A DNA stretch of 64,000 nt from Octopus vulgaris (lineage: Eukaryota), in contig OX597833.1 in the NCBI GenBank assembly GCA_951406725.2, positions 73,036,001-73,100,000 on the forward strand, written 5' to 3'. Shown piece by piece: positions 3,206 through 47,908 of this stretch (its first letter is position 1; each line of letters starts with the position of its first letter). The notes below the pieces were generated by a model. It did not search any database and was not told where the DNA came from. It worked only from the letters and a program-made list of their open reading frames with translations. A program made the position numbers and the translations under genes.

Positions 3206-4600
3206 CACAGGCCAGAATTGAACTCCCAAACAGATGCCCTCTCTGTTTCGTGTCCATTTGTTTATCATGCTGATAGGTGTGTGTGTGTGTGTGTGTGAAT
3301 GGGGGTGGGGTGGAAAGGCTTCTGCAAATAAATAGATGTGCATACAGTAAGGCTTCAGATATGCAATAGTGAGTTTTAAAAAATTCAATTAACTGAGATT
3401 ATCCATGCAATTTGCAGACAAAAACTCCCTCTGAGCACTGAAAATCTTGAAAACAATAAGCAAGGGAGAAAACTCCATTTAAAAATAATCGAAAATTTTG
3501 GGAAATAAAGGTTAAGGCAGAGGGGAGTGGCTCTTTCAGTCAACTGGTGAAAACATGTTTCAGTCTTGTTAGACCTCTTCAGCAATGCCTATGCTACTTC
3601 ACTAGCAGCACTTAGAAATGTTCAGAAATGGAGAGTATTTAGTAATACTGAGTCTAAGTAACAATGTGACTAGCAAGGAGAAATAACCTCAGGAAGTGGA
3701 GTGGGGCATTCTGCATGGTAACTATAAAGATGATGGGGGTCTCACAAATGTGAAACAGGGTGGGACCTGACTGTGTGTTTGTAATGAAAATGACTATGAA
3801 TAAAATATGTGGAAAGGAAAACTGATAACTGTTCCTACTGATCACCAGACAAATTCTTAACCGTTTTCTTAGCCCATCAGATAAAATGCTGAATATCATT
3901 TCATCTGACTCTTTAAATTCTGAGTTCAAATCCTGTTGAAATCAGTTTTGCCATTCATTCTTTCTGGGTCAATAAAGGGAAGTTTCAGTCAAATATTGGA
4001 ATCAACCAATCCTTCCTCCTCAAAACTGCTGGCCTTGGGCCAAACGTTGAAACCCTATTTCAGTGGAAATACACTGATTTTGTTACAATTAATTTTGTAA
4101 ATAATGAAGTTATCAAAATGTTGTCATCATCAGTGTGATGTTTGGAACATAAATTGGCATAAAATTTTGGTGGAAGAATGATTTTATTTCGGTCACTTTA
4201 AGACAGGGAGTTTGTATCATAGAACGAGGAATGGTCTGAAGAATGTTGGTATCGACAAGGTGAAACGCATCTCCACTGAAATACACTGTATGTGTTAGCA
4301 ACGGGAAGAGCATCCCATCCAGATAAGCAGAGGGAAATAGAGGCCAAGCTCTGTGTGTGTGTGTGTATGGTTCATTACATCAGTTTCACTCTATCTAAGA
4401 GCAATACATACATACACACACACCACACACACACACACACACACATCTTTATAGTTTCTTTATTGACAGATCTATTATTCATTTGTATATTTATTTCTGT
4501 TTATTTGTTTGCAGGTTTCCTGAACGCTCAGCATTCAACCTGAATCCCCCACCTTGTTTGTGGTTATGTTAGAAAGTCTTATCTCTTCTTCTCATTTATC

Positions 4601-4814
4601 ATGGAAACAGAGCCATTCCTTCCGTTTATGGCCTCACGCCAGTCGTCTTCGGCACAGTCATCAAGCTCCTACACTAACGGTGTCTACGGCTTGGGCAGGC
4701 ATCGCAGTTCACCTCATTCTGAGTCAAGCACAGATGAAGAAATGTTGGACATTGCCTCTGAAAGCAGCCAGGTGCATAGCATGAACACCCAGCTCTATAC
4801 AGACAAATCACAAG
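4601..4814 (+). CDS. CLCN3: First coding exon (exon 4515-4814, ATG 4601, phase-1 donor) of a probable ClC-3/4/5-family H+/Cl- exchange transporter; remaining exons lie beyond the window
   Basis: Acceptor ttatttgtttgcag|gtttcc at 4514/4515 and consensus donor caag|gtaagt at 4814/4815. Non-repetitive ORF METEPFLPFMASRQSSSAQSSSSYTNGVYGLGRHRSSPHSESSTDEEMLDIASESSQVHSMNTQLYTDKSQ-G (214 nt = 71 codons + 1). SSTDEEMLDI resembles SSSDEDLMDI of long ClC-5 and SASSDEELLD of ClC-3, and EPFLPF resembles DPYLPY of ClC-3c (all recalled, not searched). The exon call is stronger than the family call. Confidence 0.6.
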
Positions 4815-7265
4815 GTAAGTCACTTCTCTCTCTCTCTCTTCATTCTGAACCAATCCAACATGGTGGTGAACTGAAGTTTCAGTTTTGAACTGATTCTCTG
4901 ATTCTTTCAAATGGAAAACTTTGACCTACGCAAAATTTAGACTTCTGTTAGTTTCTTTTAATGTTTACACTGATGAACTCTGTTGAGCTGAAATAATTTT
5001 GCAACAACCTAAATCTGTTGTCATCTTTAATTCCGGATTCTAGTTTGAATAAAGTATAAACTGACTCCTACCCACCAGCTGTCCGGTTTCTGTGTCTCTA
5101 TTGTTTGTGTTTATGCTGTTGTAATGTTTTGTTATAACTTCCATAAAATAGTCTGTTTATATGTTATTATACTATTTTGAGGCAGAAAAGTGAAACAGAT
5201 TCTTGAAACCCATAACTATCACTTGTTGGAAGCCAACATTACCAGTTTCACTGTAGAGTGCCTGCCGTTCTGTTATCTCATGAGATAATTAATCAGACAT
5301 TTAGCAGTAGCGAGATGGGTTATGTTTATAATGTGTAACATAATTGTCTTATCATTATTTGATGTTTGAAATGAGTAGGTATGAACTGTAGAGATTTTAA
5401 TGGAAATCATGTTGAAATCTCAGATTCTCTTTGCTTCACTATTTAGGTGGTTGTGTTTAGTTGCAGGTCTTCACTGATTTAGAGGATTTATAGTGTTCCG
5501 CTTGAGTCCCCCACATTTTATTTTCTGTAACTACTTCATCAATGTAGCTTTCAGGTTTTTTTGGTTTTTTTCAAGACAAGTGTGATTGGAGAGAGATTTG
5601 GTTGCTATTTCTATTTGGTAAATTAACTATAGATTTTTGTTATATGAAGGAGATGTTTGTTGGTTAAAGCTTTCAGATTTAAGAAATTTGCAGGACTTTG
5701 TAAGCGAGTGGAGGGCCAGATGCTCACCTAACCAGCCCAAGAGTCACCTTGTTAATAAACATTGTGTTTCACCCATCTAGTAGGACCTCATCTGAGGCTT
5801 TCCTGATTCAAAAATACTTGTTTTATTGTCTTCAAATTTAAATCAAAACCTTCTCTCATAAATTAACATGAAAATTTTTGTTCAATCCTGACTCAAACAC
5901 AATAATGTGTAGTAATTTTACTTTTGTTTAGAATTTTGAAAAGAATAGTAGAAGATATTTGGTCCAACTCATTGCATCCTGAGTTCCAGTTCTACTAAGG
6001 TCGACTTTGTCATTCAGCCTTTTGTGGTCGATTAAATAAAGCAACAGCTGAGTGCTGGGATTGAATTAATCACCCACTGCCCCTACCCTCAAATATCTGG
6101 CCTTGTGGCTATGGTTGGGACAATTATTATTCTCACCAGAAGCAATGGATTTCAGCAAAGATATCATCGGTCATTGCAAGATTAAAATTCTTCCAGCTTG
6201 GCTCATTCTCTTCTACAGCTTTAAATTATTAATTGAAGATAATTTGTGCTCTTCATTTTCTATGGATGCAGTTTTGGCTGTGTGGTTAAGGAGTTTGCTT
6301 TACTCTAAGTTGTTTTGGAGGGTTTTTTCTTTAAATAGCCTCAGATCGATCCAAGCCTTGTCTGTGAAACTTGGTGGATGGAAACTATGTAGAACTCCAC
6401 TGAATGATCGATTCTTATTTCTTTGTTGTGTACAACAAATTTGGTGCCTTGTTTTACATCAACCCTTGGCCCTTAATAATCTGACTTGACTCAGCTAAAC
6501 GGTTAAGTCTCCAGTTTGAAGATAACTTTTATCATTCTCAGAGGTTCTGTTCTCTTCCTTTAAGATAAAAACATACGTATATAAGATTATCTGATTATAA
6601 CCTAACTGTCAGTTTAGCTTGTATTAGTGACTGAGCTGAGATAAAAAAAAATTTTAAGATCCTTTTTTTTTCTTTTTAGAAAAAGCTAAAATGAAAGACG
6701 AAGAAGCGATTTTTCTGTCTATTACACAGTTATCTCCCTTGTATCAATTACTGATCATCTCCAGTTCAATACTTCGTTGTTTTATTTCAAATAATCGGAG
6801 TCTTTTCTTCGGCCCATTGGGTAAAAATAATTAATTGGCCTTATTTACCGGAGGATAAATATACCAGGGTTGACCTTTTATTATTTTATTATCTACAAAG
6901 TTTAATCATTTTTTTGAAAATTACACATTTTTCTGTTGAGTTTTACACACACACACACACACACACATTTCTTTTATCTTTCATTTGTTTCAGTCATTGG
7001 ATTGTGACCATGCTGGGGCACTGTCATGAAGAGTTATCATTTGGTGGGGGGTGGATAAATATAAAGCGTACCCACATGCGGACCACACACATATAAACAA
7101 ACAACAGGTTTCTTTCAGTTTCTGTCTCCCAAATCTTCTTGTGAGGCTTTGGTTGATTCAGGACTCTGGAAGAAGACACTTGCCCAAGGTGCCATGCAGT
7201 GGCACTGAGTCTGAAACTGTGTGGCTGGGAAACAGGCTTCTTATCACACATTCATGCCTACACCT

Positions 7266-7303
<38 letters not shown>

Positions 7304-7479
7304 CTATATATCTATATATATATATATATATATATATGAATATATATCATCATCATCGTTTAACGTCCGCTTTCCATGCTAGCATGGGTTATATATATAT
7401 AGATATATAGATATATATAGGCTATTGGCAACAGAAGTAGTTTTTGTATCAAATATTAATTATCGCAACACATGGAAGT

Positions 7480-7921
7480 TAAGTTGGATGTGCTAATTAA
7501 TGTGAAGTGCCAATCTGTGTTAGTGGAGGGAACCTATGGAAAGGGTAAGCTCAGGAAGATGAGGGATGAAGTGAGAAGGGAGGATTTTCAGATGCTGAGC
7601 TTCACTGAGGAGATGACGAGGAACTGGGACTTCTGGTGATCTGTCAAGCTAAGTAGAATTGTGGCCATCCATACTTACAGGAGTGTTCTTTATGGTCATG
7701 CCCCCCCCACTCCCTCTCGTAGCTGAGAGGTCTTTGTCTGCAGGTGCCAGTGCCACGTGGCACACTCTGTAAAGTGGTTGGTGCTAGGAAGGACATCCAG
7801 TTGTAGAGGTCATGCCCAGACAATTGAAGCCCTGACAGCTCTCTGGCTGACCAGTTCCTGTCAAACCGTCCAACCCATACCCACATGGAAAATGAATAGT
7901 AAATGCTGATGATGATGATGA
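7480..7921 (+). mobile_element. RTE LINE 3' end
   Basis: VEGTYGKGKLRKMRDEVRREDFQMLSFTEEMTRNWDFW (the GRPRKTW..V..D...LGLTEEM pattern), then the family 3' UTR and (GAT)n. Confidence 0.7.
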
Positions 7922-9300
7922 GATATATAAAACATAACATCAGAGAAAATATATGGGAAGCATGACGAATTGTTTGCTATAAGTATCATCATCATCATTT
8001 AAGAATCCATTATCATCCTGTCTTTATTTTTTCAAATGGATGAGAAGTGCTTAAAAACATGAGGCTTATTTTCTGAGTGGTCAGTTGGTCTGAATGCTTT
8101 CTGAAGTAGAAACTCTTCTGTGGACATCTAAGAACAGACAGCAATCCATCCCAAATGCCTCCGTTTAGTTCCTCTTTTGTCTGCTACTTTTGCTCACAGA
8201 ACTGGAATCACCTGAAGACTCAATGGTAGAAGTCTTTGATGAGTTGCAGTTTGAAATCGGGGCGAGATTATGGTAATGCCTGATGTTCAGTGTGAGTGTT
8301 TGCAGGTAAATGTTTGTAGAGATAAGATGGACCGGAATGGTGCGGATGGCAAAGAGATGTGGCCCCTGGGAAAGGTGGATCAGATTGGGGTTTTATCTTT
8401 TACTTGTTTCAGTCATTGGACTGACACCATCCTGGGGCACTAACTTGAGTAAATTGATTCAAATACTTACTTGCTATTTATTCTGTCAGTCTCTTTTGCC
8501 GAATTGCTAAGTTAAAGGGACATAACAAACTACAAATTGTCAAACAGTGAGGGAGACACACATAGTTGCATACATGCATTCACACATGTACGCACACACA
8601 CGCACGCACGCACACACACACACACAATGGGCTTCCATGCAGTGTTTCTGGTGACCAAATTCACTCACAAGACATTAATTGGCATGAGGCTATATTAAAA
8701 AGACATTGGCCCAAGGTGCCACACACTGTGATTGAAACAGAAACCAGCTGGCTGCAAAATGAGTTTCTTGGCAACTCAGAGTTGCACCTGCAACTAAAGC
8801 TTTTGTGAAAAGCACCTAGGTTTCTCAAGCTAAGTATTAACTTGGCTCAGACAAGAATTAATGTTTCCAAAGTGAAAGAACAGTTTTTCAAAGGAGCAAA
8901 AACATCATCATCGTTAAACGTCTATATGCTTTCTAAACCTGTTGAAAATAGCAGCTAAATCTCCATCTGTCCACTCCTTAATGGATTAAAAGGGAAGAAG
9001 ACAAATTATTACTATAGTAATTAGAGCATCAAATAAAATGCTTGCGTGTTATTAAATAATATCCTGAGTTTGAGTTCCACCAAGGTCAGTTTTTCCATCC
9101 ATCCTTCTGCCAGATAAAGGGCCAGGCCTGTAGTGCCTATGTTATATATTGTTAGGACATTGATTTTGTGCCAATTCTATGCGAGGTGAGGAGTTTATCG
9201 ATAAACTCCATTAATTTGCTCCGACTCACCACATCGATAAACAGGAAGATAACTCTGGAATCATTAAACAGTTTCAAATACTTTCGCTAAATACACAACA

Positions 9301-9345
<45 letters not shown>

Positions 9346-10479
9346 GACGAATGCACATACACACATACATCACATTACACACACGTACACATCATAGAAA
9401 TGTTTGTTTCTCTAGATTTTTGTAGGACCAAGATGGAAATCAAAACGAAATAAACTCTCTCCCTTTTTCTTGTCCTTGTTTCTTTGACTCTGTCTCTCTC
9501 TATTTGTCTCTCCCCCCTCTCTCTCTCTCCTCTCTTTTCATGCACCCACACTGAAATCTCCAGTGAAGCCAATGACATAGCCCATAGCCTCTATGTGGTT
9601 GTTTGATCTGCTGAAACTAGATGCCAAATCTTCCTCAAATCACACCTTAGAGTCTTTATTAAAAATAAAAGGACAACCATACTGGATGATATACCCTGGG
9701 GTATGCTATTCCCTGGAAGAAAAAAGCAATGGTTGCAGCTGGGGTTGACTTGTGGCCATGCAACCACCACCACCACCACCACCACCACAATGATTGATAT
9801 GATAGATGTGAATGATAAGTCACAGAATAACTGATGCCTGGTGAGTGATCTGGATGTATCAATCTCGACTTATTTATTGAAGATGAACAGCAGCAATATC
9901 TAAGGAATACAATGGAAGGCAGGGTAGGCATGGTAGGCTTGGCAGTGGTATTAAGAAGTTCCTTTAGCAACCGTTGTATGGCACCTGGAACAAGTCTCTT
10001 CTACTGAAGTCTGAGGTTCACCAACACCTTGGGGGTGGGGTGAAAGTTGGCAGAAAGAATGCACATGCTCATACATATGCACACATACATACGTGCACAC
10101 CCATCCATACATATATACACACATACATACATTCATTCATTCATTCATTCACACACAGTGTGTGTATATCTTAGCAGAGACACTGGATTGTGATGGCGTT
10201 TAAGTCATCCATATAGAACAAAAAGTGTCTGGCAATTTTTTGGTTTGACATGCGAAGACACGGAATAAAGTAGCTTTGCTTGAAGACACTGAAAACAGGT
10301 AAGGCTGGGCATGGAAAAGGAAATCATAATACCTGTTGTATTAAGGAACTGAGTCTGAAAAATCTTGGGTTTGTATTCCATTTATTTAAAGTTAGGTGTA
10401 TCAGGGTGGATAGGGTGCAACCTCAACGAGAAAGTGAGTAATGATAGTTTTAGGTGTTATCTATCTATCTATCTATCTA

Positions 10480-10518
<39 letters not shown>

Positions 10519-10822
10519 TGCATATATGTATGTATTGTATGTATGTATGATGTGTAAGCCATTGTGCTGACAGAATTGTTAGTTTGCTGCTCAAAATACT
10601 TAACAACATTTCGTCCATCTTTATTTCTGAGTTCAAATTTTGTTGTCGTCAGCTTTGCCTTTCATCCTTTTGAGGGTCAATAAAATAAGTACGAGTTGAA
10701 TACTGGGGTCAACGTAATTGACTTACCCCCACCCACCTCCACCAAAATTTCTGGTCTTCTGCTAAAATTTGAAACCAATATGTGTGTGTGTGTGTATAAT
10801 CATGTATATAATGTGTGTAAAT

Positions 10823-10867
<45 letters not shown>

Positions 10868-10871
10868 AAAT

Positions 10872-11185
10872 GAAGGCACATGGCTCAATGGTTAGAGCTC
10901 ACAATCATGAAATAGTGAGTTCGATTCCCGGACCAGGCTGTGTATTGTGTTCCTGAGCAAAACAGTTTATTTCACTTGGCTCCAGTTCACTCAGCTTGTA
11001 GAAATGAGTTGTGACGTCACTGGTGCCACGCTATATTGGCCCCTTTGCCTTTCCCTTGGCATGGAGGGAGGGGCTGGTATCCATTCTGGTCCTTTATAAA
11101 CAACCTTGCCTAGAATTGTGCCTCAGAGAAACTTTATAGGTGCAATCCCATAGTCATTGATGACCGAAGGGAGTCTTTACCCTTT
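10872..11185 (+). mobile_element. tRNA-derived SINE family C
   Basis: Pol III A box tggctcaatgg and B box gagttcgattcc, then tgtgttcctgagcaaaacag...ccagttcactcagc. Related copies at about 1455-1710 (+) and 37190-37340 (-). Confidence 0.65.
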
Positions 11186-11243
11186 ATAGGTATGTGTGTG
11201 TGTGTATATAATGTATGTATATGAGTATACATTGTGTGTATAG

Positions 11244-11276
<33 letters not shown>

Positions 11277-14200
11277 AAGAGTTGTTGCATAAACAAAAAT
11301 CACCTGACGTTCTTTACGTTTGACCGAGTTATCTCCCTTCGCCAATTATTTTCCGTTACCTTTTGTGATTAAAGTAACTGCTGGAAGGAACTTCCACCGT
11401 TGAGGGCGGAAGTGGTGAGCACCAGCATGGCCACAGTCCACACACTGAAGCTAACCGTTGTCTGATAGAAAAAAAAAAAAAAAGGAAATACTCGCAATTC
11501 TTGTTGTAATGGTAACTAATTATACCAGAAACTGTTCCAGGAACTGAACAGGTCGCCTTTAAGTGATCACTTGATATGCTAGAAATAGCGGCCAAATTTT
11601 CTCTTTAATCATATCTTCGGATCTTGAGGAGAAGAATGGACATATTAGATAATGCAGTCCTTGTTGCATGTTGTATGTCTCGAAAAAATGGTTTGGTCAT
11701 GGCTAGATTGTCTTTGACCGAATGTCTGATTAGAGCCAACTTGAAGCTAATCAACAACATAATCTCCACAGTTATTCTTTGAGTCAGTCTGTTAGAATCA
11801 GCCACATTTCCCTTTAATCACACCTCAAAGAGGAAGAACATAATTTGCGATTGTCGTGGTTAGGGTTAGGGTCTTAGGTCAGCTCAACCAGGGATAAATT
11901 AAAGATAAAGGGAACCTCAGTGGGATCACTACAGTCTGCTTGTAATAGAAGTCAAACTTCCTTCAAATCACAACTTACTGGTTCCCCCCCCCCTACTAAA
12001 AAGGAAGAAAATATTGGATAATGTAGGATGGTCAGGGTTGGAAAGGCTTTGATCATAAGTCTGCTTGATCAGGAATAACTTGGGGCTAAAACAGCAACAG
12101 CTTGAACAATACTGTAAAGACACACACACACACATACATGCAACAGGCACACGTACTCACACACAATAGACACCATCACATGTGCACACACACACACACA
12201 ATAGTCTGAGTGTAATTTTGATTGATATTCATAGGAAATCTATTGATCAAGCGAAGAGGTTTACATAGCAACACTTGACAGTCTCACCACACAACGCATT
12301 GGATATTAGTGTGTGTGTGTGCATGTGAATTAGTGTCCATGCATGTGTGTTGCACCGGATATTAGTGTGTGTGTTTCTTGTGTTGTGATTAATAAATAAA
12401 ATCACACACACACACACACACACACACATTCAGTTGATGGTGAAGACCAACAGTTGTCATCATGGTGATTCTTCTTTACTTCCAGTTCTGTCAGCCTCAC
12501 ACAGACCAATATGAATGAGTATATGATCAAAAGACACTCCAGCTGTGGCTATCCCACCGTTTTTTCAACTTTTTTTTTATCAAATATAGTATTTCTAGAA
12601 GTTCTTGAAGGGCCTGAATTCCTACTTTTAAGGAGGTAGTGTGAATGGAGGGATTATTTTCTTGCTATTTGTAGCAGGTTAATCATTAGTATAGGGACTT
12701 TTATTTTTTACTCTTTTGCTGTAATTGTTTGGTTCTAGCTCAGTCTTGATCAAGCTAATCTATGCCCAAAGACTGTCCAATTGTGACCATTCTGCCTTTC
12801 TTACTTCTTCAGACAGGACTACATTGTTTAATGTTTCCTTTTCTACTTTAAAGACCCTACAGTGTGAATTGAGGGTGATTTGGCTGTTGTTTTTCCCAGT
12901 TCAAGCAACCGAGAGAATCCTTCATTAGCTCAGATTCCCTTGTCGGCAAGAGTATTGGTTTCCCAATAAGACAGGCAAAAATTCACAAAATCTTGATGGT
13001 TTCCTGAGAAAAGCTGTGTCTTTTATAAATGCTGACAAATACGACTGTCTGTCTGTCTGTGTGTCTGTCTGTCTGTGTGTCTGTATGTTGAGTCAAGAAA
13101 ATCATTTTGAATATTTGTAAATCTGATCCGACTGTGAGACACTTTAAGCAAATGTTTCCTACCCCATTATATTACTGGTACTAAGAGCCACAGCTGATTG
13201 ACCCCTTTACTGATGAGGTTCTTGTAAACCTCAGTCAGTTTGGTTGTTAAAAGGTACCACATTGATATTGTATCACTAAATAAGTGTTTAACCAGCAGTA
13301 CAAACCAACAGCCATCATTGTTTCTTGGTTTATTGCCCTTATACTCACCATCCATACCCTCCACCCCACTGTCAGCATCATTTCCCTCCCACATCAATGC
13401 ACCCCCTACACACTCACACACTATCAATCCTCACAAATCACACCATATCAGCTTCAAAAACGACACACTGGTTAATTTAGCCCAAGGTACACAGTGTCTG
13501 AAAGAATTGGACTTGATAGTCATGGCTGGAATGCCTTTGATTATAGGTATGACTGATCAACAACAGTCACCCTGACCCTCATACCTTAATATTTAATACC
13601 CTCCCCCCCCCTCTGTCACTTCCCTGTCCCCCATACACCGCCGCCCCCTACCCTCCAGGATCCTGTCCATTTATTTCCTTTTTACTGACTTTTGTTGGTG
13701 GTCTGTGGCCATGCTGGAACATTACCCTTAACTCTAAAGCCAATTATACCAACCCCAGTATCTGACTGATACTTATTTGAGTCAACAAAGGAGCATCTAT
13801 TAGGTTGTTTGGTCTTCTAGAAATAGCAGTCAAATCTACCTCAAATCACGCTTTATTGTTTTACAAAAACGAGCAACATATTGTATGGTGTAGTCTTAGA
13901 TACACTATGCCTGAAAAGATTGGATGGTTACTACTAGAACATTGTTGATCATAAGCCTGTTGTTGTTGCATGGCCTAGGGTTAAATAACAACAGTTGTAA
14001 TATTCTTGATCAAAGGTGGAAAGCTGGCAGACTTGTTAATGTGCTGAGCAAAAATGCTGAATGGTTTTTCTTCTGATTCTTTATGTTCTGAGTTCAAATC
14101 CCACCAAGGTGGACTCTGCCTTTCATCCTCCTGAAATCAATAAGGTACCAGTCATGTACTGGTGTTGGTGTGTTTGCCTTGTACCAAAATAAGAATTGTA

Positions 14201-15095
14201 ATCTTTGACTTGGAATGCAAGAAAGGCAAAAGCCACTTGTGATGGGATTTGAATTCAAAATGTCAAAAAGCAGAAATCAACCTTCACAAGGTTTATTTTA
14301 TTTTGCTCCACCAATTCTGCTCCTCACCATTTCATGTCATTGATGTTTGCAGAAAACTGAAGTTAGTAATAAACCCTGCTTCATGAAAGGATACTCAATA
14401 AAAACAAACAAAAGAGACCAAAATATTTTTAGAATATTTTGCTGAGTCTCCAAGACAAGTTGAGAAGGAGGAGGAGGTTGGCTGGAACAGAAGAAAATGA
14501 GGTAAAGACACCCCCAAATTCGGATTGTTGTTTAACCTTAACTCTTCTCTTCTCAAGCAGTCTTATGTTCAAAAGGCATTCCAGATATGGCCATCTGGCT
14601 GGGTTTTTTTTTTGTTCCTGTTTTATGCAATGTGTTTCTTTATTTAATGCAGTAGAGGGATTTCATTGCTGTTTCTAGTGCATAGAATCCCCTAAAATGG
14701 ATGAGTGATATCATTGAAAGCTGGCTGGTCGACCCTGTGACATTATAACAATTTCCTCTTTTCTCCCCCCCCCCCAACAAAGTGGCATTGTTCAAATGAA
14801 TAAAGTACGAATCTGTGATTGAGGCATCTCCATCCACACCCAGCAGCTCTTCCCCAATTAAGCTGTTCAGTTAATTGTTGGAATAGCAGCATCTACTCCC
14901 CACCCTCCTTTCACAATTGTTTTGGTTTTGAAGGAATAGAATAATGGGAGTCTATGGAATTGGTGAAGCTGAGTCAATGTCATACACATGCAACAGCATC
15001 ATCAAACAGTCCCACCAAACGACCAGCAACATTTCTGTATCAACCCCCACCTTCAGTCATACTCTACATGGACAGTTTTAGAAATATTTGTTTAA

Positions 15096-15316
15096 CCCTT
15101 TCGTTACTGAATTTATTTTGAGATGCTCAGTGTTTCTTCCAATTATGTTAAATATAACAAAGAATTAAGTAAAATAACATCGTTATCATTAAGCTAGAGT
15201 TAGGGACATAAATTGTGACTAAGGTTTGGTGGAAGCTTTTAATTCAGAACTTTTGAAAACCAGACATTTGTACTAAAGAACCAGAGCCGGTTTTAGCTGG
15301 GTTGGTAACGAAAGGG
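15096..15316. mobile_element. piggyBac-type MITE with TTAA target-site duplication
   Basis: TTAA (15092-15095), CCCTTTCGTTAC ... GTAACGAAAGGG, TTAA (15317-15320). 12-bp TIRs with CCC/GGG ends, no ORF. Confidence 0.85.
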
Positions 15317-15589
15317 TTAAAGACTAAACATTTGGAAAATACTTTACTTTTGTTTTCCTATTCAATATCATGGCTGTGTAATTAAGAAGCTTGTTTCTCA
15401 ACCACTTGGTCCCATGTTCAGTCCCACTATGCAACACTTTGGGCAAGGTCTTCTACTTAAATCTTGGGTTAACAAAAAAGATTGGTGTACCCATACACAT
15501 GTGCAGCAAGCTGGATATAAGGTGTGTGTTTTGTGTGTGCGTGAATAAGAGAGAGAAAGAAAGAAGAGAGTGGTGTGGTAAATTTGGTA

Positions 15590-17640: not shown

Positions 17641-17938
17641 TTGAGTTAAATCAGTGGCTGTAAGGTATGCATCATCCCTGTACAGACCTCCAGAGAGGTT
17701 GGGAAAGTGTCAGTTACTCTGTTAAAGAAGGAATAGGCCAACCATATCAATAACCTCCTGGAGATGGAAGCCAGATCTACCCAATGTTTATTTGCTTCCA
17801 TTACTGGGTGCATATTTTCGTGAACTACATCTGCCAACATTATGAAGTAACTCTGACCCCCCAGAAGCAGCTCTTGGACTTGTAACACCATATCTTCTCC
17901 CCTTTAATTCTCTATGTTTCTTTAAGTTTGCTTTGTTA

Positions 17939-18056
<118 letters not shown>

Positions 18057-18126
18057 TTCAAATGATTTAGTAAAGTAACTTTATTTCATTATAAGGTTAA
18101 TGTTTGGAATAAAATATAAAGATGAC

Positions 18127-28143: not shown

Positions 28144-28187
28144 ACACACGCACACACACACACACACATACAAGTACAATACACTGG

Positions 28188-28245
<58 letters not shown>

Positions 28246-31008: not shown

Positions 31009-31010
<2 letters not shown>
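30027..31010 (-). mobile_element. Two tandem RTE LINE 3' ends (30027-30365 and 30383-31010)
   Basis: Each begins (CAT)n...ttccatgctagcatgg on +. The second reaches coding AMTSDQDLWKYAMREK on the minus strand. Confidence 0.75.
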
Positions 31011-31045
<35 letters not shown>

Positions 31046-32516: not shown

Positions 32517-32580
32517 ATGGGAATGGTGCTGGTTTGTTGGACGTTGGGAGTCCTGGATGTGCAGTGTGTGCATGAGTCTG
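32517..32580 (+). CDS. Candidate alternative first coding exon (MGMVLVCWTLGVLDVQCVHES-G), phase-1 donor
   Basis: ATG 32517 after an in-frame stop, donor tctg|gtaagt at 32580/32581, 64 nt = 21 codons + 1, unique sequence. An out-of-frame ATG at 32510 weakens the call. Confidence 0.25.
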
Positions 32581-34244: not shown

Positions 34245-34295
<51 letters not shown>

Positions 34296-37200: not shown

Positions 37201-37355
37201 TGATGTCACAACTTATTTCTACAGTTGACTGAACTGGAACAAAGTAAGAGAGTATCTTGCATCAGAACACAGACAGCATGACTCAGGAATTGAACTCACA
37301 ACCTCATGATTGGAAGCCAGACACTCTAACCACTGAGCCTTCCTATATATATCTA

Positions 37356-37407
<52 letters not shown>

Positions 37408-37869
37408 CTAGCCTTGATGCTGCCCTTTGGGTGGCATTCAGGTTAGCTCCTGCAAAGAGCAACTTTGAGGCCTTCAGCCCCACTATCCGATTTAGTCACC
37501 AATGCCATGTATTTAGTTTAAAATGCAGTAAAAATAGTGGGGTCAGTGAGGCCCCAATTAGGCAGCCCTTAAAAACATAGACCCCCTTAGGACAGTCCCT
37601 GTGATTAGGGGAGTTGCTGCTTTGAGCTTTGTTGTCCTTGCACCGATGCCCTTCCTAATACCAACCATTCTAGGAGTGTAATGGGTGCTTTTATGTGCCA
37701 CCGGCATGGGTGCCATTTACATAACACCGGCAACAACCCTGACTCCAATTCATGGGTGGATTCCATTTCGATGGCACTGGCAGTGAACGACCACAACTCT
37801 GATGCAAGGGTGCCGTTTACATGGCACTGACTGCAAAATGGCACCACCAATCGCCACAATTCCTGCCTT

Positions 37870-37911
<42 letters not shown>

Positions 37912-37912
<1 letters not shown>

Positions 37913-38280
37913 CTTCAGTCATTAGACTGCATCCATGCTGGGATTCTGTCTCGAAGTTTTAGTTGAGTAAATCAAGCCCAGACTTATTTCTTTTTTAAGC
38001 TTAGTACTTCTGTCAGTCGCTTTTGTCAAACTGCTAAGTTACTCTGATGTAAACACATTAGCAATGGTCATCAAGCGTGGTGGGAGACAAACACATACAC
38101 ACACACACACATTATACAACAGGCTTCTTTCAGTTTCCATCTACCAAATCCACCCGCAAGGCTTTGGTTGGCCTGGGGCTATAGTAGAAGACACTTGCCC
38201 AATGTGTAATGCGGTGGGACTGAACCAGGGACCATGTGGCTTGGAAGCAGACTTCTTACCACTCAGCCCAACTCTGCCTC
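37912..38280 (-). mobile_element. tRNA-derived SINE family B (CORE-like ccttgggcaagt motif, internal CA tract), near full length
   Basis: ttcagtcattagactgcatccatgctgg...ctgctaagtt...(ca)n...ggcttctttcagtttccatctaccaaatccac...gaagacacttgccc...gggactgaacc. Similar copies at 6975-7260 (-), 8396-8775 (-), 2190-2340 (-), 265-530 (+), 57938-58080 (+) and 25220-25330 (+). Confidence 0.7.
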
Positions 38281-38615
38281 CCAACTTATAGATTGGCTTC
38301 AGATTTTGGCGCAATTCCAGTAATTTCCGGTGAGAGGGTGAGTCAGGTATTTCACCCCCACCCCCCGTGCTCAAATGGCACTTATTTTATCAATTCTGAA
38401 AGGATGAAAGGCAAAGAAGACTTTGGCAGAATTTGATCTCAGAGTGTAAAGACAGACGGAACGCTTGCTCTGTTACCATTTCTGCCAGTTGACTTACCTT
38501 ATATAAACTAATAGATTAAAAAACAGGTAGGCATTGTATGAATGTGTGTGTATATATACACATACACACACACATGCAGACACACACAAATGAAAATATG
38601 TGTGTATATACACTT

Positions 38616-38659
<44 letters not shown>

Positions 38660-39838
38660 GCACAAGTCCCAATGTGTGTCTACTTGTTGAAAGAAATGTT
38701 TGTCAGAGTTTGTTTAGAAATGTATTCCTGAAATTGTTGGAGGAGAAGGAGGAGGTAGTGATTCTGTTGCCACTCCAATCATCATCATCATCATCATCAT
38801 CATGACCGTAATTCTTTGCTCCATTTTGCCCATATATAATTACTAGTTGTGTTCATATTGGCTCTCAATGATCAAAAACCATTTCAATCCATGTCACCAA
38901 TTTGGGGGGGGGAGGGGATTTGTCTTACTTCCTCTCTCCCCCCCTCTTTCCCTCCCTCTACTCCATCATTATTCCCCCCTCCCTCTTTATATTTGTTTGG
39001 CAATTACAAAATAAACACTGGGCCTCCAGCAATTGGTGTTATTTGATCTTGTAACCAACCAACCAACAAACCAACCAGTTTCGTCTCTCCCCCCCCACCC
39101 CGCCCCAAGCCTTTACAATGGTTTACATCAAGGTTCCCTATTTCTCCCATATTTTGTTGCCTTTTTCATATATGGAGGGGGGGGGGGTTCTATTTATTTT
39201 ATGATTATTGGATATCTTTTTCGTTACCATTTTATGTGACTTCTTAATTTTCCTTTTGTTGTAATTTGTTTTATCTTTAAGACTTGTTGATATCCCCCCT
39301 CCACTCCCCACCCCCTTCTTTCATCCTTATTTTAACTTCCTCTTCTCTTCCTTTATCTCTCCCTCTCTACCTTTTCCGCTTTTCTCTATGCCGTGTTATT
39401 AACACAAATTCAAATTCCCAAACATTGTAAAATCTATAATTGTGGACAACAAATCAAAGCCCACCCCCTCACACACACACACACACGCATACTCTTATAC
39501 AAATGTGTGTGAGTAGGAGAAAGAGAGACTCTAATGAACCGTAGTGAGCCACGAGGAATTTTGAATGAATTTAAATTCCAAGAAAGAAACACCAACTACA
39601 CACTGTAAAGTGGTTGGCATTAGGAAGGACATCAAACTGTGGAAACCAAGCCAAAGCTGATTTGGAGCACGATGCCACACTGTGGCTCACTGGACCCTGA
39701 CAGCTTGGAAAACAGACATTCAATGATGGAACTAATGAGGATTAGTTTGTGTATATACACACAACACACCTATGTAGGTATATATGCATATATATATGAA
39801 TATGTTTGTTTACACATGTATGTGTATGGATGTATATA

Positions 39839-40263
<425 letters not shown>

Positions 40264-40304
40264 TGCACACACACACACATGTATACATAAATATATATAC
40301 ACAA

Positions 40305-41159
40305 ACAAGGTACAGTGAATAAACCATCATCTAAATTACGCAAAAATGAAGATAACACTGACATCTCATTTTAACAGATATATTTACCCAAATTACATAA
40401 AAATATCTTGAAATACTAAAGAGCAAATCTATTCAATAAAATCGCAATTGGCTTCAACCACGGCCCCCAGATGACTTCGGAATCTCCTTCAACTCTTCTG
40501 GACAATCTCCTTGATTAAGTTGGTGAATGCTGCCATAATCCTTGCCTTCAGTTCATCTTTGGTGTTACAAGGAGTTTTGTTGGTGTCTCGCTCAATTGCT
40601 CCCTACACATAATAATCAAGGGGGTTGCAGCCTGGGGAGTTAGGTGACCAGAGGAGTTGGAGGTGATGACCTCGCAAAGATTGTCGGACAAATATGACTG
40701 GGTTCTGCTTGTGTGGCATGGTGCAGAGTCCTGTTGCCAGACATAGGGGCTTCCAGCAACCACTCTCTTGACCCAGGACAGCACTACCTCCTCCAGGTAC
40801 TTGATAGAGGCCTCCGTGTTGAGTCTAAGGCCACATGAGGAGATGAATGGAAGCATAACGTCCCCATCACTAGTGATCACTTCAAGCACCATAATGTTGA
40901 CTGCATATTTGACTTTTATCACTCTTGGTACATGTTCTTAGATTGCACTGTCCTCAGATTGACACCCAAACACTCTGAAATATTTGTATTGGAGCTTCCA
41001 GCACAAATGCCAAGCAGTACAGCATGTCGTTTCCAAATTTCTGGCTGAGTGACTTGCGTCATGGTGCTGTTTTTCTCACAATCAGTGCCCAACTGACCCT
41101 ACTGCGCACACATGAAATTAAAAATATAAAATGGCAACAATTTACCCATCGTACCCTGT
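40305..41159 (-). mobile_element. Internally deleted Tc1/mariner-superfamily transposon (DD37D/maT-like)
   Basis: Minus strand N-terminal MTQVTQPEIWKRHAVLLGICAGSSNTNISECLGVNLRTVQ (HTH) joined to VNIMVLEVITSDGDVMLP...YVWQQDSAPCH and, after a frameshift, SPNSPGCNPLDYYV*GAIERDTNKTPCNTKDELKARIMAAF...VVEANCDFIE*. Degenerate TIRs (acaaggtac.../...gtaccctgt). Confidence 0.85.
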
Positions 41160-41970
41160 GTGTGTGTGTAGATATACATGCATAGGCCATACATACATAC
41201 CAGCCTGGAAAACGGATGTTAAATGATGATGATGATGATGATGATATATAATCCTTTCATGTCTGTTTTCCCTGCAGGCATTGGTTGCTTGGTTCAACAA
41301 GAACTGGCAAACCATAGGAGTGCACCAAACTCTGTCTGCTTCAGTATAATTTTTGTGGCTGGGTGTACGTAGGTGGTTTTATGTGGCAACAGCACCATTA
41401 GGGTCACCAAATAAATTACAAGACCCCTCAGTTGAGGTGAGAGTAGTATTGAGAGTGAGTAATAGGTGTGTTGCAGTAGAGGAGAAGCATGGCTATTTCA
41501 GGTGAAAGGAGAGAGAGGGAAAAGATGTGATGGGTAAGGGTGTGGGGATGTATATGTAGTGAAGTGGAGCAAGGATTGGAGAGGGTGAGGCAGTAGGTGG
41601 GTAAGTTTGTGAGATTGGGAAAAGAGAGTGAGAAATGGAGTGGGGCAATGCAGGTGGAGGGAGATATTAGAAGAGATTCAACAGGGACATATGGGGGTGG
41701 GATACAATAGGGGATGAGCACAAGGGGGAAGATGGGACGAGGAACAGATTGTTCGTGTGGGGTGGGGGGCATGGTCATCAAGATGAATTTTCTCAAACTC
41801 AGCAAATCTGCCAATTGTCTGAGTCCTTTGTGAGGCTCAACATCTGAAGATGCTTCCTTACCTCTTTGTCCTATGTCTTGCTGGGTTCCATCCATTTCTA
41901 TGCAGCTCTCCTCATCCATACCAGTGCAGTCTTCTCTCTTTCACTCTACAACTGATTCGTTTTATGCCTA

Positions 41971-42008
<38 letters not shown>

Positions 42009-42507
42009 ACTTATATTCACATCCAGCAGCAGAACATGCTGACTTCATTTCTTTCAGACCTTTTTAAAATTCCTCTCTTATGGCCTCGTAAACAAGAAGG
42101 GGATCAAGAACCAGTCCTTGGTGGTGAGCTACCTCTACACTAAATACCTTACTATACCCATTGCTGACTGCATCTCTGGACATGCCTTGGGCAGTTCTCC
42201 CCCAGCTACTGACCAACCCTAGCTTCTGCATTGACCCCCAGATGAGGGGGCAAGGGACCCTGTCAAAAGCTTTAAGACAATTATTGTAATATACAAAACA
42301 AATAGTAAATTTGCATCAGAGACTCTGAGAGAGGGGTCATTGATTATTTCTTAATGATTACTGTTGATAGGTAAGACATACCACCTGTCTCACCTCTCCT
42401 TCCCTCTCTCTCCCTCTCTCTCTCCTTCTCTCTCTTCTCTCTCTCTCCTTCTCTCTCTTCTCTCTCTCTCCCCTTCTCTCTCCCCCTCTCTCTCTCCCTC
42501 TCTCTCT

Positions 42508-42539
<32 letters not shown>

Positions 42540-43385
42540 CCTCTCTCTCTCTTATATTAGCTTCTTTATCTCAATATGTTGCTCTTAACTACTTCTATCG
42601 ATTTTCTAACGATGCTCATTTCTGTCCTTCTCAGGACTGAAGTTTTTTTACAGTAAAATCTTCTCAGACTTGGCAGTGGGAGGGACGGATCATTGGCTGG
42701 AGGCTGTTGTTGTTATTTAACCCTAGGTAAGCCCTGATCAAGAGCAGACCTATGATCAGTGCTGTTCCAAACTGTGATCATTGTGTCATTTTGTATGTCA
42801 GTCCCTAATTTATCCAAAAGTAAATTTGGTTGCTATTTCTTGCAGATTCGGTGACCCTATAGAGGTACTCTTGTTTGTTTTGTTGGTTAGGATCAGATGA
42901 GCCCTAACTAGCTGATGTATGATGAAAGGATTTCCACTTGTGACCATCATGTCTTATTTTACTGGTGTAGGACTAGATTATCAGTGAAGCCCTTGTGTAA
43001 ATATTATTATCTTTGTTTTACGTCCACTTTCCATGCTGGCATGGGTTGGGAGGTGATACAAATTTATTTCTTTTGACCACAAAGTCTCTCATGTTGACTG
43101 AATGTTGTTGTTTAGCCCAAGGTAAGACCTGACCTATGATCAAAGACATTCTAACCATGTCCTTACTGTATTATTTGTCTGGCCTTCTCGGAATTGCTTC
43201 CAGTCATTTGGGTGCCATTTCTCCCCCTGTAATCTCTCCCTCCCTACATGCTGGGGCTGAGACTGAAACCCTGTGGGTGGGAAGCAGACTACTTAACACA
43301 GCTAGGCCCCTGATGAAAATTTGCCACCAGCCTTCAGCCTCAATTAGAGACAATTGTTAATAATAATAATAATCATAATCCTTTA

Positions 43386-43612
43386 GGGCAGCAAGCTAGC
43401 AGAATCGTTAGCATGTCAGGCGAAATGCTTTGTGCTATTTCGTCTGACATTTATGTTTTGAGTTCAAATTCCCCCGAGGTCAACTTTACCTTTCATCCTT
43501 TCGGGGTTGATTAAATAAGTACCAGTGATGCACTGGGGTCTATGTAATCGACTTGATCCCTTTGTTTGTCCCTTCTATGTTTAGCCCCAGTGGGCAATAA
43601 AGGAATAAATAA
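43386..43612 (+). mobile_element. tRNA-derived SINE family A, near full length
   Basis: ggcagcaagctagcagaatcgttagc...gagttcaaattc (B-box-like)...caactttacctttcatcctttcggggttgattaaataagtaccagt...(aat)n tail. Other + copies at about 10565-10778, 14020-14195, 26525-26720 and 43975-44145. Confidence 0.75.
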
Positions 43613-43624
43613 TAATAATCTTTT

Positions 43625-44990
43625 CCACTGTAGACACAAGGCCAGTATTTTCAGGGGAGGGAGGGGGGGGGCAAAGTTGATTACATCGACCCCAATACTT
43701 AACTGATACTTATTTTGTTGACCCTGAAAGGATGAAAGGCAAAGTCAACCCTGGCAGTATTTGAACTCAGAACGTAAAGAAAGATGGGATGCCGCTAAGC
43801 AGTTTGCCCAGCTCACCATCTTAATAATGATTAATAATAATAATAATAATTTCTTTTATTAGCCCCAGGGACATAGATGACAAGATCACAAGGACAGGCA
43901 ACAATCTGGTGATTGACATAAAGCATAATAATGATAATAATGTTTGCACACCAAATGAAAATGATTTGTGTTATTTCTTGTGAATCTTTATGTTCTGGGT
44001 TCAAATTCTGCTGGGGTTGATTTTGCCTTTCATTCTTTTGTAGTCAGTGAAATAAGCACCAGTTGAACTCTGGGGAAGATTGTAATCGACTAACACCCCC
44101 CCGCCTCCGAAATTTCAGGCCTGGTGCTTATAAGTAGAAAGGATTTATAAGAATAATAACAATAACGATAATAGTTAAATGGCCTGAGTGGAAAGGTGTG
44201 TTCTGAGCATGCACCTGTTGATTGAAGACCAACTAGGAGAAGGTACTCCCTGTTATTTTATTGTTTTTACCTGCATTTTTATGTGTCGTCCTCCTTGTTG
44301 GTTGTTAATAAAGGAAACATTGATGATAATAATTGTTTCAAAATTTGGCACAAGGTCAGTAGTTTTGAGGGGTGGGGCAAATTGATCACATTGACTCCAG
44401 TTCTTGACTGGTTTCTTTTTTCTTTTTTTCAACCCTGAAAGGACGAAGAGCAAAATTGATGTTGATGGGATTTGAACTCAGAACAAATGCCTCTCAGCAT
44501 ACAAAACAATTCTGCCAACTCACTGCCTTAATAAGAATGGTTTCAAATTTTGGCACAAAGCCAGCAATTTTGGGAGAAGGGATGAGTCAATCACATCAGC
44601 CCCAGTACACAACTGGTACTTTTTCTGTTGACCTTGAAAGGATGAAAGGCAAAGTCGACCTTGGTGGGAATTGAACTCAGGACATAAAGACAGACAAAAT
44701 GCCACCAAGCAATTTTCTTTGAAGGCTAATGATTCTGCTAGTTCACTACCTTAACTGCTTTAATTAAGAAGAATTATTCGCAATTTCAGCCCAAGAGGCA
44801 GCAACTTTGAGGGGAGGACATTAGTTGAACTCATTGCCCCCCCCCCCCCAACTACTTGGCTCATATTTTCTTTTATTGGCCCCCACCTCCACCAATTTCC
44901 CCAGAAGGATGGAAAGCAAAGTTGACCTCAGTGGGATACGAATTCAGAATGGATTTAGCCAGAATCTGTAGCACAAAGCATTGATTCTGT
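43625..44990. mobile_element. Cluster of SINE family A copies, mostly minus strand (43625-43822, 44335-44530, 44540-44752, 44780-44990)
   Basis: Reverse-complement core ccctgaaaggatgaaaggcaaagtcgacc...tttgaactcag is repeated. Another minus copy lies at about 38295-38500. Confidence 0.7.
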
Positions 44991-47850
44991 CCCTTTGTGG
45001 CCTTCAGTAATGATGAGGATGATGATGATGATGATAGTTTACAAAGAGGATGTCTAACAGGCCATAGGCAAAGTGATATCTCACTGTGTGTGTGTGTGTG
45101 TGTGTGTGGCACCTGACAGATTTATAGCAGATTTATGGGCAAAATGTTTAATGATTGTTGTGGGGTGAGGGGTGGAGAATAATTAGCACAAAAAAAATCT
45201 GAAAATAAAAATTAACAAATACAAAAACAAGAGAAAAGGGCAAATATTTACTTACTGTGGGGGAATTCCTTCCAATTTCTCTCTGTTTGTCTGTCTATCA
45301 TTCTATCTTTCACTTCTTCTGTGACTTCTTTATTATTCTTTGGCAGAAAGAAAGTAGTGGAAGTTTGAAAAATGGTAAAGTCTTTGGTATCGACTGTTCA
45401 ATTAGTTGTTTACCACAAATCATAGTTTTCCTTGTTGTTCCTTCAAACATTTCCATAGAAATTCTTCAAGTTTATTCAGTTCATATATAGGAGGGCGGGG
45501 ACAGGGGAGCAGTAATTTTTTTTTTTAACTTTCAAAAATTGTACAGCCATCATCATCATCATTGTTTTTGTCCACCCCCTCCACTCCCCAGCTAAGTGTG
45601 TGTGTGTCTGTGTGTCCATCTCACAAAGTCTGAGATCAGGTTTCATGGACCATCATACTTATCATTCTATGTTCTCTTAAAATATGAATTTCATTCTGAT
45701 TTTGGGTCTAACTCTGAAAGTCTGCTTCTTTTTTTCTCTTTTCTTAAAAACAAAAACAAATTTCAAGTTACCATCCTTCCCTACAGTTTCCTGTATTCTT
45801 TTACCACACACACACACACACACACACACACATTCTTACACTTTCTCTCACAAACATATTTTCACACCCTTCTTTTCTTACATACACACTCTCAAATACT
45901 CAAAAATGCATATTCTTAAATATATAGCCATGTGTGTGTGTGTAAATCTGAACCTATAAGACCTGTCACTCACTTTTAGATTCATGTTACACTGAACACG
46001 TTCCCGTACACACACACACACATGCATGTGCCTGCACGCATTCATGCCTACATGTCTGGCTGTGTACTTTTACAAACAGGTTTCAATTTCTTTTAATGTA
46101 GAACTCTCTATCTATCAGTGGGTGGCAACGACTGGATTCTTTATTCAAAGATCAGTCAGTGGCAGAAGCAGTTCTCTCTCTTTTTCCCCATCATCTGCCT
46201 GTCTCTTAAAACGCGCACACACACACACAGTTACTGGTGCTTGTGGATGCTGAATGCTGAGCAGCTTCTTGTCCTTCTGCTCCGAACCACACCCAGTCAG
46301 TCAAAGCTCTCCCACCCACCACCACCACCACCACCACCACCACTACTACTACTAGAAATGTCTTGGAGTTGGCAGTCAAGCAAGCAAGCAGGAGGAAGCA
46401 GACTTATTTAACCGATGCACACACAGGAGGCCCCTAGCGTTACATCACTACAAAATTCTCTTCATTGCACAGTGAAATATACTCAACCCAAACAGTAATC
46501 CCTCTCTCTCTCTTTCTTTCTCTCTCTCTCTCTCTCCCCCTTTTCTCTCCCTGTGTGTATATATGTGTATATATATATTTTCCTCTCTCAGTCACCTATC
46601 ATTTCCCCTACCCCCCATAATATACCTCACCCACACCCTCATATATTCCCCGTGTCACACTGGGCCCTCATTTCTCTCTTTCTTTTCACAACTTCACTCA
46701 AGTCTTTCACTGCAACTTCTTTCTTCTCTTTCTTTCTTCCCATTAGCTGCTGCCTCCTTCTTCTTCTTCTTCTTCTTTTCTTTTCCCTCTCCTTTTTCTT
46801 CGAAGTAGTTTTTCGCAACTTTTTCTTATCCCATTGGACAAAACTGTTTGTTTAGAATTTGTTGAAATTGGTTAATTTTTGTAATTTTCTCAAACCTAAT
46901 CACCCCCCCCCCCCTTTGCATTGCTTCCTTCTTTTTCTTCATCTTTCTTCTCTTCGTTCTTCTATATTTTCTTCTTTCTCTTCCTTTCTTCTTTAATGTT
47001 TTTTTTCTTTTTGCTGTCATAAAATATTTGCTTAACATTTCTGGCTAATAATAGCCTCTTCCACCCATCCGCCCCCCTAACTGATCAACTCAAAGAATTG
47101 TTGACGAAACCATTTCAAATTCTTTAAGGCCTTCTTTCAGATGGTGATAACCCCACAACACACAATCCCGGCACAAACATATTTGCCTTTTGCCTTGACA
47201 CTATTTTTTTTTTTTTTTTTAATTTTAGTATTGGTTTGGAACTAATAGATCTGAATTTTGGGACCAAATCTGGGGCCAAATTTGGGGCTCTGGCTGTAAA
47301 TTATACCTTTATTTATTCCTTTATCTTGTTCAGATTTCATGGATGTATATTCTGTGTAAATGACAGCAAAAAATATCTTGTCTCTAAACCCTTCTCCTTC
47401 ACCTCAAGGGATAAACGGTCAATTTGAATGGCGAAAAGTGCAAGATCAGTCATTAGTCTTTACTCATGCTTGACTGTGATTGCCCTCCCTGCAACCAGCT
47501 ACATCACAGGACTTTTTGTGTTAAGCATTCAGTGTCTTCAGTGACACTTCACTGAGGTCCTACATCCAAATATACATTTAAGGGGAACGAGAGAGAGAGA
47601 GATCAAAGGGGTTTCTTTCTCTGTCCACCCCACCACCATGCCCCCTAAATCCACCTGAGATTCTGGATTTAATGAGACTCATTGCTGGCTCTGGATGGTT
47701 AGGCATCATAAACCCTGCACATCTTCACTTGGCAGCCACCGCATCTTTACCCTTCTTTCATAACATCCCTGTATTTTTATTCCTCACGTCTCGTTGGGGG
47801 GTAAAAAAAAGGACAGAAGCAGAAAAACCTAAAAAAGAAAAGTTTGCAAA

Positions 47851-47908
47851 ATGACGCTTATTGATATGTACCATACTTTGGTGGAGAAATATGAAGATTT
47901 GGATTCAG
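47851..47908 (+). CDS. Candidate alternative first coding exon (MTLIDMYHTLVEKYEDLDS-G), phase-1 donor
   Basis: ATG in aaaATG context at 47851, donor tcag|gtaaga at 47908/47909. 58 nt = 19 codons + 1, the same phase as exon 4601-4814. Sits at the end of about 3 kb with no recognisable SINE/LINE copies. Carries two YxxL motifs (YHTL, YEDL). Confidence 0.5.

What the first reader, a model, noticed from the sequence alone, without database searches (positions are those of the whole stretch)
4515..47908. Possible set of alternative phase-1 N-terminal exons in the giant intron of a ClC-3/4/5-like exchanger
Seen: exon 4601-4814 ends G|gtaagt in phase 1. At least three more ATG-initiated short ORFs in the following intron also end at G|gtaag in phase 1: 19419-19440 MARSYSL-G, 32517-32580 MGMVLVCWTLGVLDVQCVHES-G and 47851-47908 MTLIDMYHTLVEKYEDLDS-G. 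Any of them could splice in frame to the same downstream exon. Established: vertebrate CLCN3 and CLCN5 use alternative promoters or first exons in a long 5' intron, and the ClC-3 N-terminal variants (dileucine versus YLPY) set endosomal or lysosomal targeting. Inference: an independently expanded cephalopod set of swappable sorting-signal N-termini. Caveat: chance GTAAG donors are common here (e.g. 33527, 42370, 43122, 60443) and phase 1 occurs one time in three by chance.
Basis: partly seen in the sequence, partly recalled or inferred. Interest (0 to 1): 0.75.

Follow-up and report, generated by a model that had tools for sequence, protein, structure and literature searches.

The report
Ancient swappable tails of octopus ClC-3
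An octopus gene for an endosomal chloride/proton exchanger has several annotated, interchangeable front-end exons, one of which matches a front end in abalone and snails; they likely send one transporter to different cell compartments, as in mammals, and one of the three proposed extra exons is probably a chance pattern.

Summary
Mostly real, but neither new in kind nor cephalopod-specific. Exon A (4515/4601-4814) is the N-terminus of an Octopus ClC-3/4/5 exchanger; the shared acceptor lies 14 kb beyond the window. Two of the three proposed intronic exons are N-termini of RefSeq-predicted isoforms: D (47851-47908; O. bimaculoides X5 and O. sinensis X5, 19 of 19 residues identical) and B (19419-19440; O. 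bimaculoides X6 only). A further annotated exon, E, lies just outside the window. C (32517-32580) is in 0 of 14 cluster members and fits chance (2.3 such ORFs expected). The new result: a profile built only from five gastropod isoform N-termini ranks D first among 12,595 frames of the locus (E=1.6e-4), so D likely predates the cephalopod-gastropod split. It keeps two tyrosines seven residues apart (YxxPhi-like) and helical amphipathic periodicity. Alternative N-termini at this junction are annotated in 16 of 22 non-cephalopod species examined, which refutes an independent cephalopod expansion. A sorting role, as shown for mammalian ClC-3a/b/c, is inferred, not shown; no splice junction was seen directly in reads.

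The parts
4515..4814 (+). Exon A: internal exon with acceptor at 4514|4515, start codons at 4601 (long form) and 4628 (short form), phase-1 donor at 4814; carries an [DE]xxxL[LI]-like ETEPFL and a DxxLL-like DEEML
   Evidence: (72 of 72 residues identical to O. sinensis X1); a profile of 17 non-cephalopod N-termini hits only this frame in 254 kb (E=1.1e-11)
19419..19440 (+). Exon B coding part (7 codons + G, phase-1 donor); likely real; gives an almost tail-less isoform without a sorting motif
   Evidence: Identical to the N-terminus of O. bimaculoides RefSeq isoform X6 (P0013); absent from the five O. sinensis isoforms listed
18536..18689 (-). Inverted duplicate of 19343-19496, including exon B's coding part and donor; one mismatch in 154 nt; wrong strand for this gene
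   Evidence: I2; only full-length second copy found in the genome
32517..32580 (+). Candidate C: ORF and donor are present but unsupported; probably chance
   Evidence: 0 of 14 members of the Octopus/Argonauta cluster, 0 of 15 of the decapod cluster; best E 3.7 against 180 N-termini; single copy; chance model
47022..47833 (+). Likely 5' untranslated part of exon D
   Evidence: Four contigs from 3 of 4 runs of different studies lie in this stretch; RNA status of the runs is a guess, no silent control was laid
47851..47908 (+). Exon D coding part (19 codons + G, phase-1 donor): two YxxPhi matches (YHTL, YEDL), amphipathic-helix periodicity, homologous N-termini in gastropods
   Evidence: (O. bimaculoides X5 and O. 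sinensis X5, 100% identical)
4815..64000 (+). Window part of a 73-kb intron (4815-77963 in window numbering). Beyond the window it holds annotated exon E (67314-67416, donor G|GTTAGT, phase 1) and ends at the common acceptor 77963|77964

Best explanation
This is the 5' part of an Octopus ClC-3/4/5 chloride/proton exchanger gene in which exons A, D and E, and likely B, serve as mutually exclusive phase-1 N-termini that are predicted to splice to one common exon and likely steer the same transporter to different endosomal compartments, while candidate C is probably chance. Shown: the exon coordinates, the in-frame common acceptor, the match of A, B, D and E to RefSeq-predicted isoforms, and sequence homology of D to gastropod isoform N-termini and of A to N-termini across protostomes. 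Inferred: separate promoters drive D, E and B; A's acidic dileucine-like motifs and D's tyrosine motifs bind clathrin adaptors; B and the common-exon Met give a default short form like ClC-3a. The set is an old molluscan (A: older) arrangement with lineage-specific gain and loss, not a cephalopod invention.
For: Isoform N-termini switch exactly at the codon split by the 77964 acceptor. D is 19 of 19 identical in two Octopus species while E is 86%. Gastropod-only profile: D frame first of 12,595, E=1.6e-4, next 2.1; without Haliotis still first at E=0.065; Haliotis X7 alone E=6.5e-4. Both tyrosines and the final DL are kept in 6 of 6 aligned D-type peptides. 56 of 115 A-like N-termini have [DE]xxxL[LI] in the first 25 residues, and forms lacking that first stretch are annotated in Octopus, Haliotis, Pomacea, Biomphalaria, oysters, scallops, Mytilus and Liolophura. 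Contigs of 3 of 4 runs lie directly upstream of D's start codon. Mammalian precedent: localisation of ClC-3 depends on splicing that alters the N-terminus, with ClC-3c in recycling endosomes (passages of PMC13562645, PMC7940362, PMC12677024).
Against: All isoform evidence is gene prediction (XP_ models); I saw no junction in reads. B rests on one species and 7 residues, and its donor is duplicated in inverted orientation here. B and E have no motif match, and A's motifs are non-canonical in Octopus (FL, ML). The first YxxPhi is broken in Pomacea (YNAK). D's periodicity points to a helix, whereas YxxPhi motifs bind adaptors in extended form (recalled). D was not found among 15 decapod cluster members or in bivalves. 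A decapod E-position profile did not hit Octopus E. The Markov model leaves room for more real donors than B and D.
Confidence: 0.66

Rival explanations
1. The exons are real, but D works as an amphipathic helix (membrane, partner or CBS-domain contact that tunes gating or assembly), not as a linear adaptor-binding signal.
For: Hydrophobic moment peaks at 100-105 degrees in 5 of 6 D-type peptides with shuffle p from <0.001 to 0.019; conserved positions are spaced 3-4 and 7 apart. N-terminal residues in the common exon take part in TMEM9 inhibition in human ClC-3 (passage of PMC13562645), so the tail lies near a regulatory site.
Against: Pomacea lacks the periodicity (p=0.27); three of the five gastropod peptides are closely related pulmonates, so they are not independent; the final YxxL is kept in 6 of 6.
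Confidence: 0.22
2. The alternative exons matter only as promoters for tissue- or stage-specific expression; the short peptides are passengers and translation may start at the Met in the common exon.
For: B encodes 7 residues without a motif; isoforms that start at the common-exon Met are annotated in Ostrea, Haliotis asinina, Physella and Limulus; many N-termini are lineage-specific.
Against: A and D peptides are conserved across deep splits, which a passenger peptide would not be. The rival fits B and perhaps E only.
Confidence: 0.1
3. One reading: a cephalopod-specific expansion of four or more sorting-signal exons, including C.
For: B, E and C have no detected homologue outside cephalopods; phase-1 frames are mildly enriched (p=0.03).
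Against: D and A are shared with other molluscs; 16 of 22 non-cephalopod species have alternative N-termini; C is in no annotated isoform.
Confidence: 0.05

Closest known systems
Mammalian CLCN3 N-terminal splice variants ClC-3a, -3b, -3c
   Same: One exchanger core with alternative cytoplasmic N-termini; best solved-structure match is the 818-residue ClC-3 (1178 bits); its acidic stretch before the core aligns with exon A's STDEEML; localisation differs by N-terminus in mammals (passages).
   Different: At least four annotated N-termini instead of three; the Octopus junction lies directly before the STNL stretch, about 15 residues downstream of where the mammalian variants diverge (position recalled); the LLDLL cluster of the mammalian common part reads LMDTL here; D's double-tyrosine helix-like peptide has no tested vertebrate counterpart.
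RefSeq-predicted Octopus isoforms (O. bimaculoides XP_014783627-631 and XP_052831009; O. sinensis XP_029647365-367, XP_036366949-950)
   Same: Exons A, B, D and E are their N-termini.
   Different: They are automatic models without functional description; C is not among them; the inverted duplicate of B is seen in this genome (other species not checked).
Gastropod ClC-3/4/5 isoforms (Haliotis rufescens X7, Pomacea X7, Biomphalaria X9, Physella X4, Candidula)
   Same: D-type N-terminus with the same two tyrosines and DL.
   Different: Gastropod peptides have an acidic extension of 6-35 residues after the motif; gastropods have two further N-terminal classes (DxDY[LF]xV-like and SYSKL-like) that were not found in the Octopus region.

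Membership tests
ClC-3/4/5 2Cl-/H+ exchangers | Voltage_CLC domain plus two CBS domains | tested here: met
   Pfam on the O. sinensis X1 protein: PF00654 300 bits, PF00571 two stretches; 20 downstream coding exons map in order in this genome
ClC-3/4/5 2Cl-/H+ exchangers | GSGIPE serine, GKEGP gating glutamate and proton glutamate | tested here: met
   Motifs at 244, 286 and 343 of P0008; E345 aligns with ClC-3 E339, named the proton glutamate of ClC-3b in PMC10134905 (passage)
ClC-3/4/5 2Cl-/H+ exchangers | Closer to ClC-3/4/5 than to other CLC branches | tested here: met
   ClC-3 1175-1178 bits versus at most 232 for ClC-1, -2, -6, -7, -K
ClC-3/4/5 2Cl-/H+ exchangers | Coupled 2Cl-/H+ transport in endosomes | not testable with these tools
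   Needs electrophysiology and imaging
CLCN3-type N-terminal variant system | Alternative N-terminal exons joined in frame to one common exon | tested here: met
   A, B, D, E in annotated isoforms, all phase 1, acceptor at 77964; annotation-level evidence only
CLCN3-type N-terminal variant system | Junctions seen in transcripts of this species | tested here: inconclusive
   Contigs upstream of D in 3 of 4 runs, no joint or loose end listed; B and C not examined in reads
CLCN3-type N-terminal variant system | Sorting motifs in the variable N-termini | tested here: inconclusive
   D: two YxxPhi; A: non-canonical dileucine-like matches; B and E: none
CLCN3-type N-terminal variant system | Variants localise to different compartments | not testable with these tools
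   Needs expression of tagged isoforms
CLCN3-type N-terminal variant system | Same intron position as vertebrate CLCN3 and homology of D to the ClC-3c exon | not tested
   No vertebrate genome or ClC-3c sequence was retrieved
CLCN3-type N-terminal variant system | Separate promoters for each first exon | not testable with these tools
   No CAGE or raw reads; A has an acceptor and is an internal exon

The most novel reading that the evidence does not exclude
Exon D encodes a 15-residue double-tyrosine amphipathic helix kept since the cephalopod-gastropod split: an undescribed, optional targeting or gating module of endosomal CLC exchangers that works differently from the linear dileucine and tyrosine signals known in mammals.
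Probability: 0.25. Interest if true: 0.55.

Novelty: new member of a known kind. Interest (0 to 1): 0.36.

Why it matters
Invertebrates run their endosomal chloride/proton exchange from essentially one ClC-3/4/5 gene where mammals have three (recalled). If the tails sort the protein, swappable N-termini are how one gene covers several compartments, and the mammalian ClC-3a/b/c arrangement is one case of a much older strategy. The conserved D peptide gives a short, testable motif. The finding does not support a cephalopod novelty, and most of the exon set is already in automatic annotation.

Tried and rejected
No RNA holder was listed by the run search (18 of 24 rows hold exon A, RNA status guessed). 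In one search no contig of the 4 runs covered 47834-48300, which includes D's coding part and donor, and 1 of 4 runs laid nothing; this proves nothing either way. Read evidence for B and C remains open. A database search with the C peptide was not possible (22 residues, minimum 40); C was compared only with N-termini already collected. Search for shorter proteins with the D N-terminus (57 hits): none D-type, most look like intron read-through from genomic contigs. Profiles of two gastropod-only N-terminal classes and 14 single bivalve, chiton, nemertean, annelid and decapod N-termini found no further exon in the 254-kb region (best E 0.22). AlphaFold2 of the D isoform left residues 1-50 at pLDDT under 50: uninformative on the helix. 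No complex job was sent. B as a transposon-derived repeat: rejected, only the local inverted copy and short AT-rich matches were found (the search skips common words). Markov background: set aside as too low. Searches for papers on molluscan or Octopus CLC isoforms listed none relevant (for Drosophila gave 0); subscription journals and supplements were not searched. Earlier scan findings: none.

Full report
Observation. The window is G000:C20:73,036,001-73,100,000 of a 2.8-Gb genome. Exon A has a pyrimidine-rich acceptor at 4514|4515, so it is an internal exon with an untranslated 5' part. The pattern is weak evidence by itself. Of 18 GGTAAG sites on + in the intron, 6 close a phase-1 ATG frame of at least 6 codons; the empirical background predicts 2.3 (p=0.03), and 4 remain against 2.3 once B and D are set aside (p=0.21). 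A Markov model gave stronger enrichment (0 of 200 simulations) but undercounts the control strands.

What the gene is. The exon A peptide finds an Octopus bimaculoides H+/Cl- exchanger at 97% identity and is 72 of 72 identical to O. sinensis X1. The rest of the protein maps to 20 coding exons from 77964 to 143083 in window numbering. The protein has the CLC and two CBS domains, both key glutamates and scores 1178 bits against solved ClC-3 versus at most 232 against other CLC branches.

Which candidates are exons. All 14 members of the Octopus/Argonauta cluster were read: 8 start with A (5 long, 3 short), 3 with E, 2 with D, 1 with B, 0 with C. D (47851-47908) is identical in O. bimaculoides X5, O. 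sinensis X5 and the window. B (19419-19440) matches O. bimaculoides X6 only; here it lies in one arm of a 154-nt inverted duplication. E lies outside the window at 67314-67416. These isoforms are automatic predictions. Contigs from 3 of 4 runs of different studies lie in 47022-47833, directly upstream of D's start codon; the runs' RNA status is a guess and no junction was listed, so this is a weak hint only.

Not a cephalopod expansion. In the isoforms listed for other species (at most 15 members shown per cluster, so counts are lower bounds), 16 of 22 non-cephalopod species have an A-type N-terminus plus at least one unrelated one (species grouped by hand from source names). The proteins switch at the same place, just before the S[STAG][NH] stretch; the intron phase in those genomes was not checked. 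A profile from 17 non-cephalopod A-type N-termini hits only exon A in 254 kb (E=1.1e-11). Five gastropod N-termini (Haliotis rufescens X7, Pomacea X7, Biomphalaria X9, Physella X4, Candidula) were picked by eye as D-like; a profile from them alone ranks D's frame first of 12,595 (E=1.6e-4, next 2.1), still first without Haliotis (E=0.065, next 0.97). Among 244 distinct N-termini it hits its five members, Octopus D (5e-6) and two insect sequences at 0.02 that I treat as noise. D was not seen in 15 decapod cluster members or in bivalves. The simplest reading is an exon older than the cephalopod-gastropod split (Cambrian, recalled), with gains and losses of other exons in each lineage.

How it likely works. 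Shown: four annotated phase-1 N-termini and one acceptor; purifying-type conservation of A and D. Inferred: separate promoters in the 73-kb intron choose the tail, and the tail sets the compartment. In mammals, splicing that alters the N-terminus places ClC-3a and -3b in late endosomes and ClC-3c in recycling endosomes with unchanged transport (passages of PMC13562645, PMC7940362, PMC12677024, PMC10134905 and PMC5362633; the primary papers could not be read). D carries two YxxPhi matches, A one [DE]xxxL[LI]-like and one DxxLL-like match in non-canonical form, B and E none. 56 of 115 A-like N-termini have a canonical [DE]xxxL[LI] near the start. I put the architecture at about 0.85 for A, D and E, 0.65 for B and 0.1 for C, and the sorting role at about 0.6-0.7. 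The main rival is that D is an amphipathic helix: 5 of 6 D-type peptides peak at 100-105 degrees with shuffle p of at most 0.019, though three are related pulmonates; AlphaFold2 was uninformative. For B, a promoter-only role is as likely as any peptide function.

Comparison and novelty. It works like the mammalian CLCN3 a/b/c system and the gene is a member of the ClC-3/4/5 family by every feature testable here; whether the variable intron is the same one as in vertebrates was not tested. The exon set is largely in RefSeq already. I found no paper on molluscan ClC-3 N-terminal isoforms, which cover open-access and preprint texts only; supplements were not searched. What is new here is the deep conservation of D and its double-tyrosine, helix-like pattern.

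Verdict. Observation confirmed; interpretation partly supported; new member of a known kind; interest 0.36. The boldest reading not excluded is an undescribed helical targeting or gating module in D (probability 0.25, interest 0.55 if true).

Noticed in passing
window 18536-18689 and 19343-19496: 154-nt inverted duplication (one mismatch, 653 nt apart) that contains exon B's start codon and donor and abuts a SINE-like repeat; in pre-mRNA from exon A it would form a long hairpin over the B donor, a possible editing or splicing-control site, or an assembly artefact.
   Followed up: partly
L002:3315-3417 (window numbering 67314-67416): Annotated alternative exon E (isoform X4 in two Octopus species), phase-1 donor G|GTTAGT, missed by a GTAAG-only scan; decapods have an N-terminus in the same slot whose homology to E was not shown.
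   Followed up: yes
beyond the window, about 113553-117303 in window numbering (L016-L017): One intron of this gene has a GTATCCTTT donor and a TCCTTGAC branch-like site close to the acceptor, which looks like a minor (U12-type) intron (consensus recalled).
   Followed up: partly
beyond the window, 122875-122898 in window numbering: 24-nt cassette exon (8 residues) in the first CBS region, present in some isoforms of Octopus and in a decapod-cluster protein, absent from the solved ClC-3.
   Followed up: partly
gastropod proteins P0186, P0195, P0201, P0210, P0053, P0046, P0343 and P0197, P0202, P0205: Two more conserved classes of alternative N-termini in gastropods, each centred on a tyrosine motif, with no match in the Octopus region.
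   Followed up: partly
P0018 and P0090: The pharaoh cuttlefish has two differing ClC-3/4/5 proteins listed on contigs of equal length, possibly a tandem duplication; Physella and Babylonia also list two isoform series.
   Followed up: no
window 62324-62797 (+), 21749-22261 (-), 40548-40937 (-), 17193-17585 (-), 33968-34318 (+): Open frames that look like decayed transposon pieces (non-LTR, Helitron, mariner; recalled likeness); no Pfam match at E<=0.01.
   Followed up: partly
window 4601-4628: A short form that starts at the second Met and lacks the first dileucine-like stretch is annotated in Octopus (X3) and in many other molluscs: possibly a second, conserved motif switch inside exon A.
   Followed up: partly
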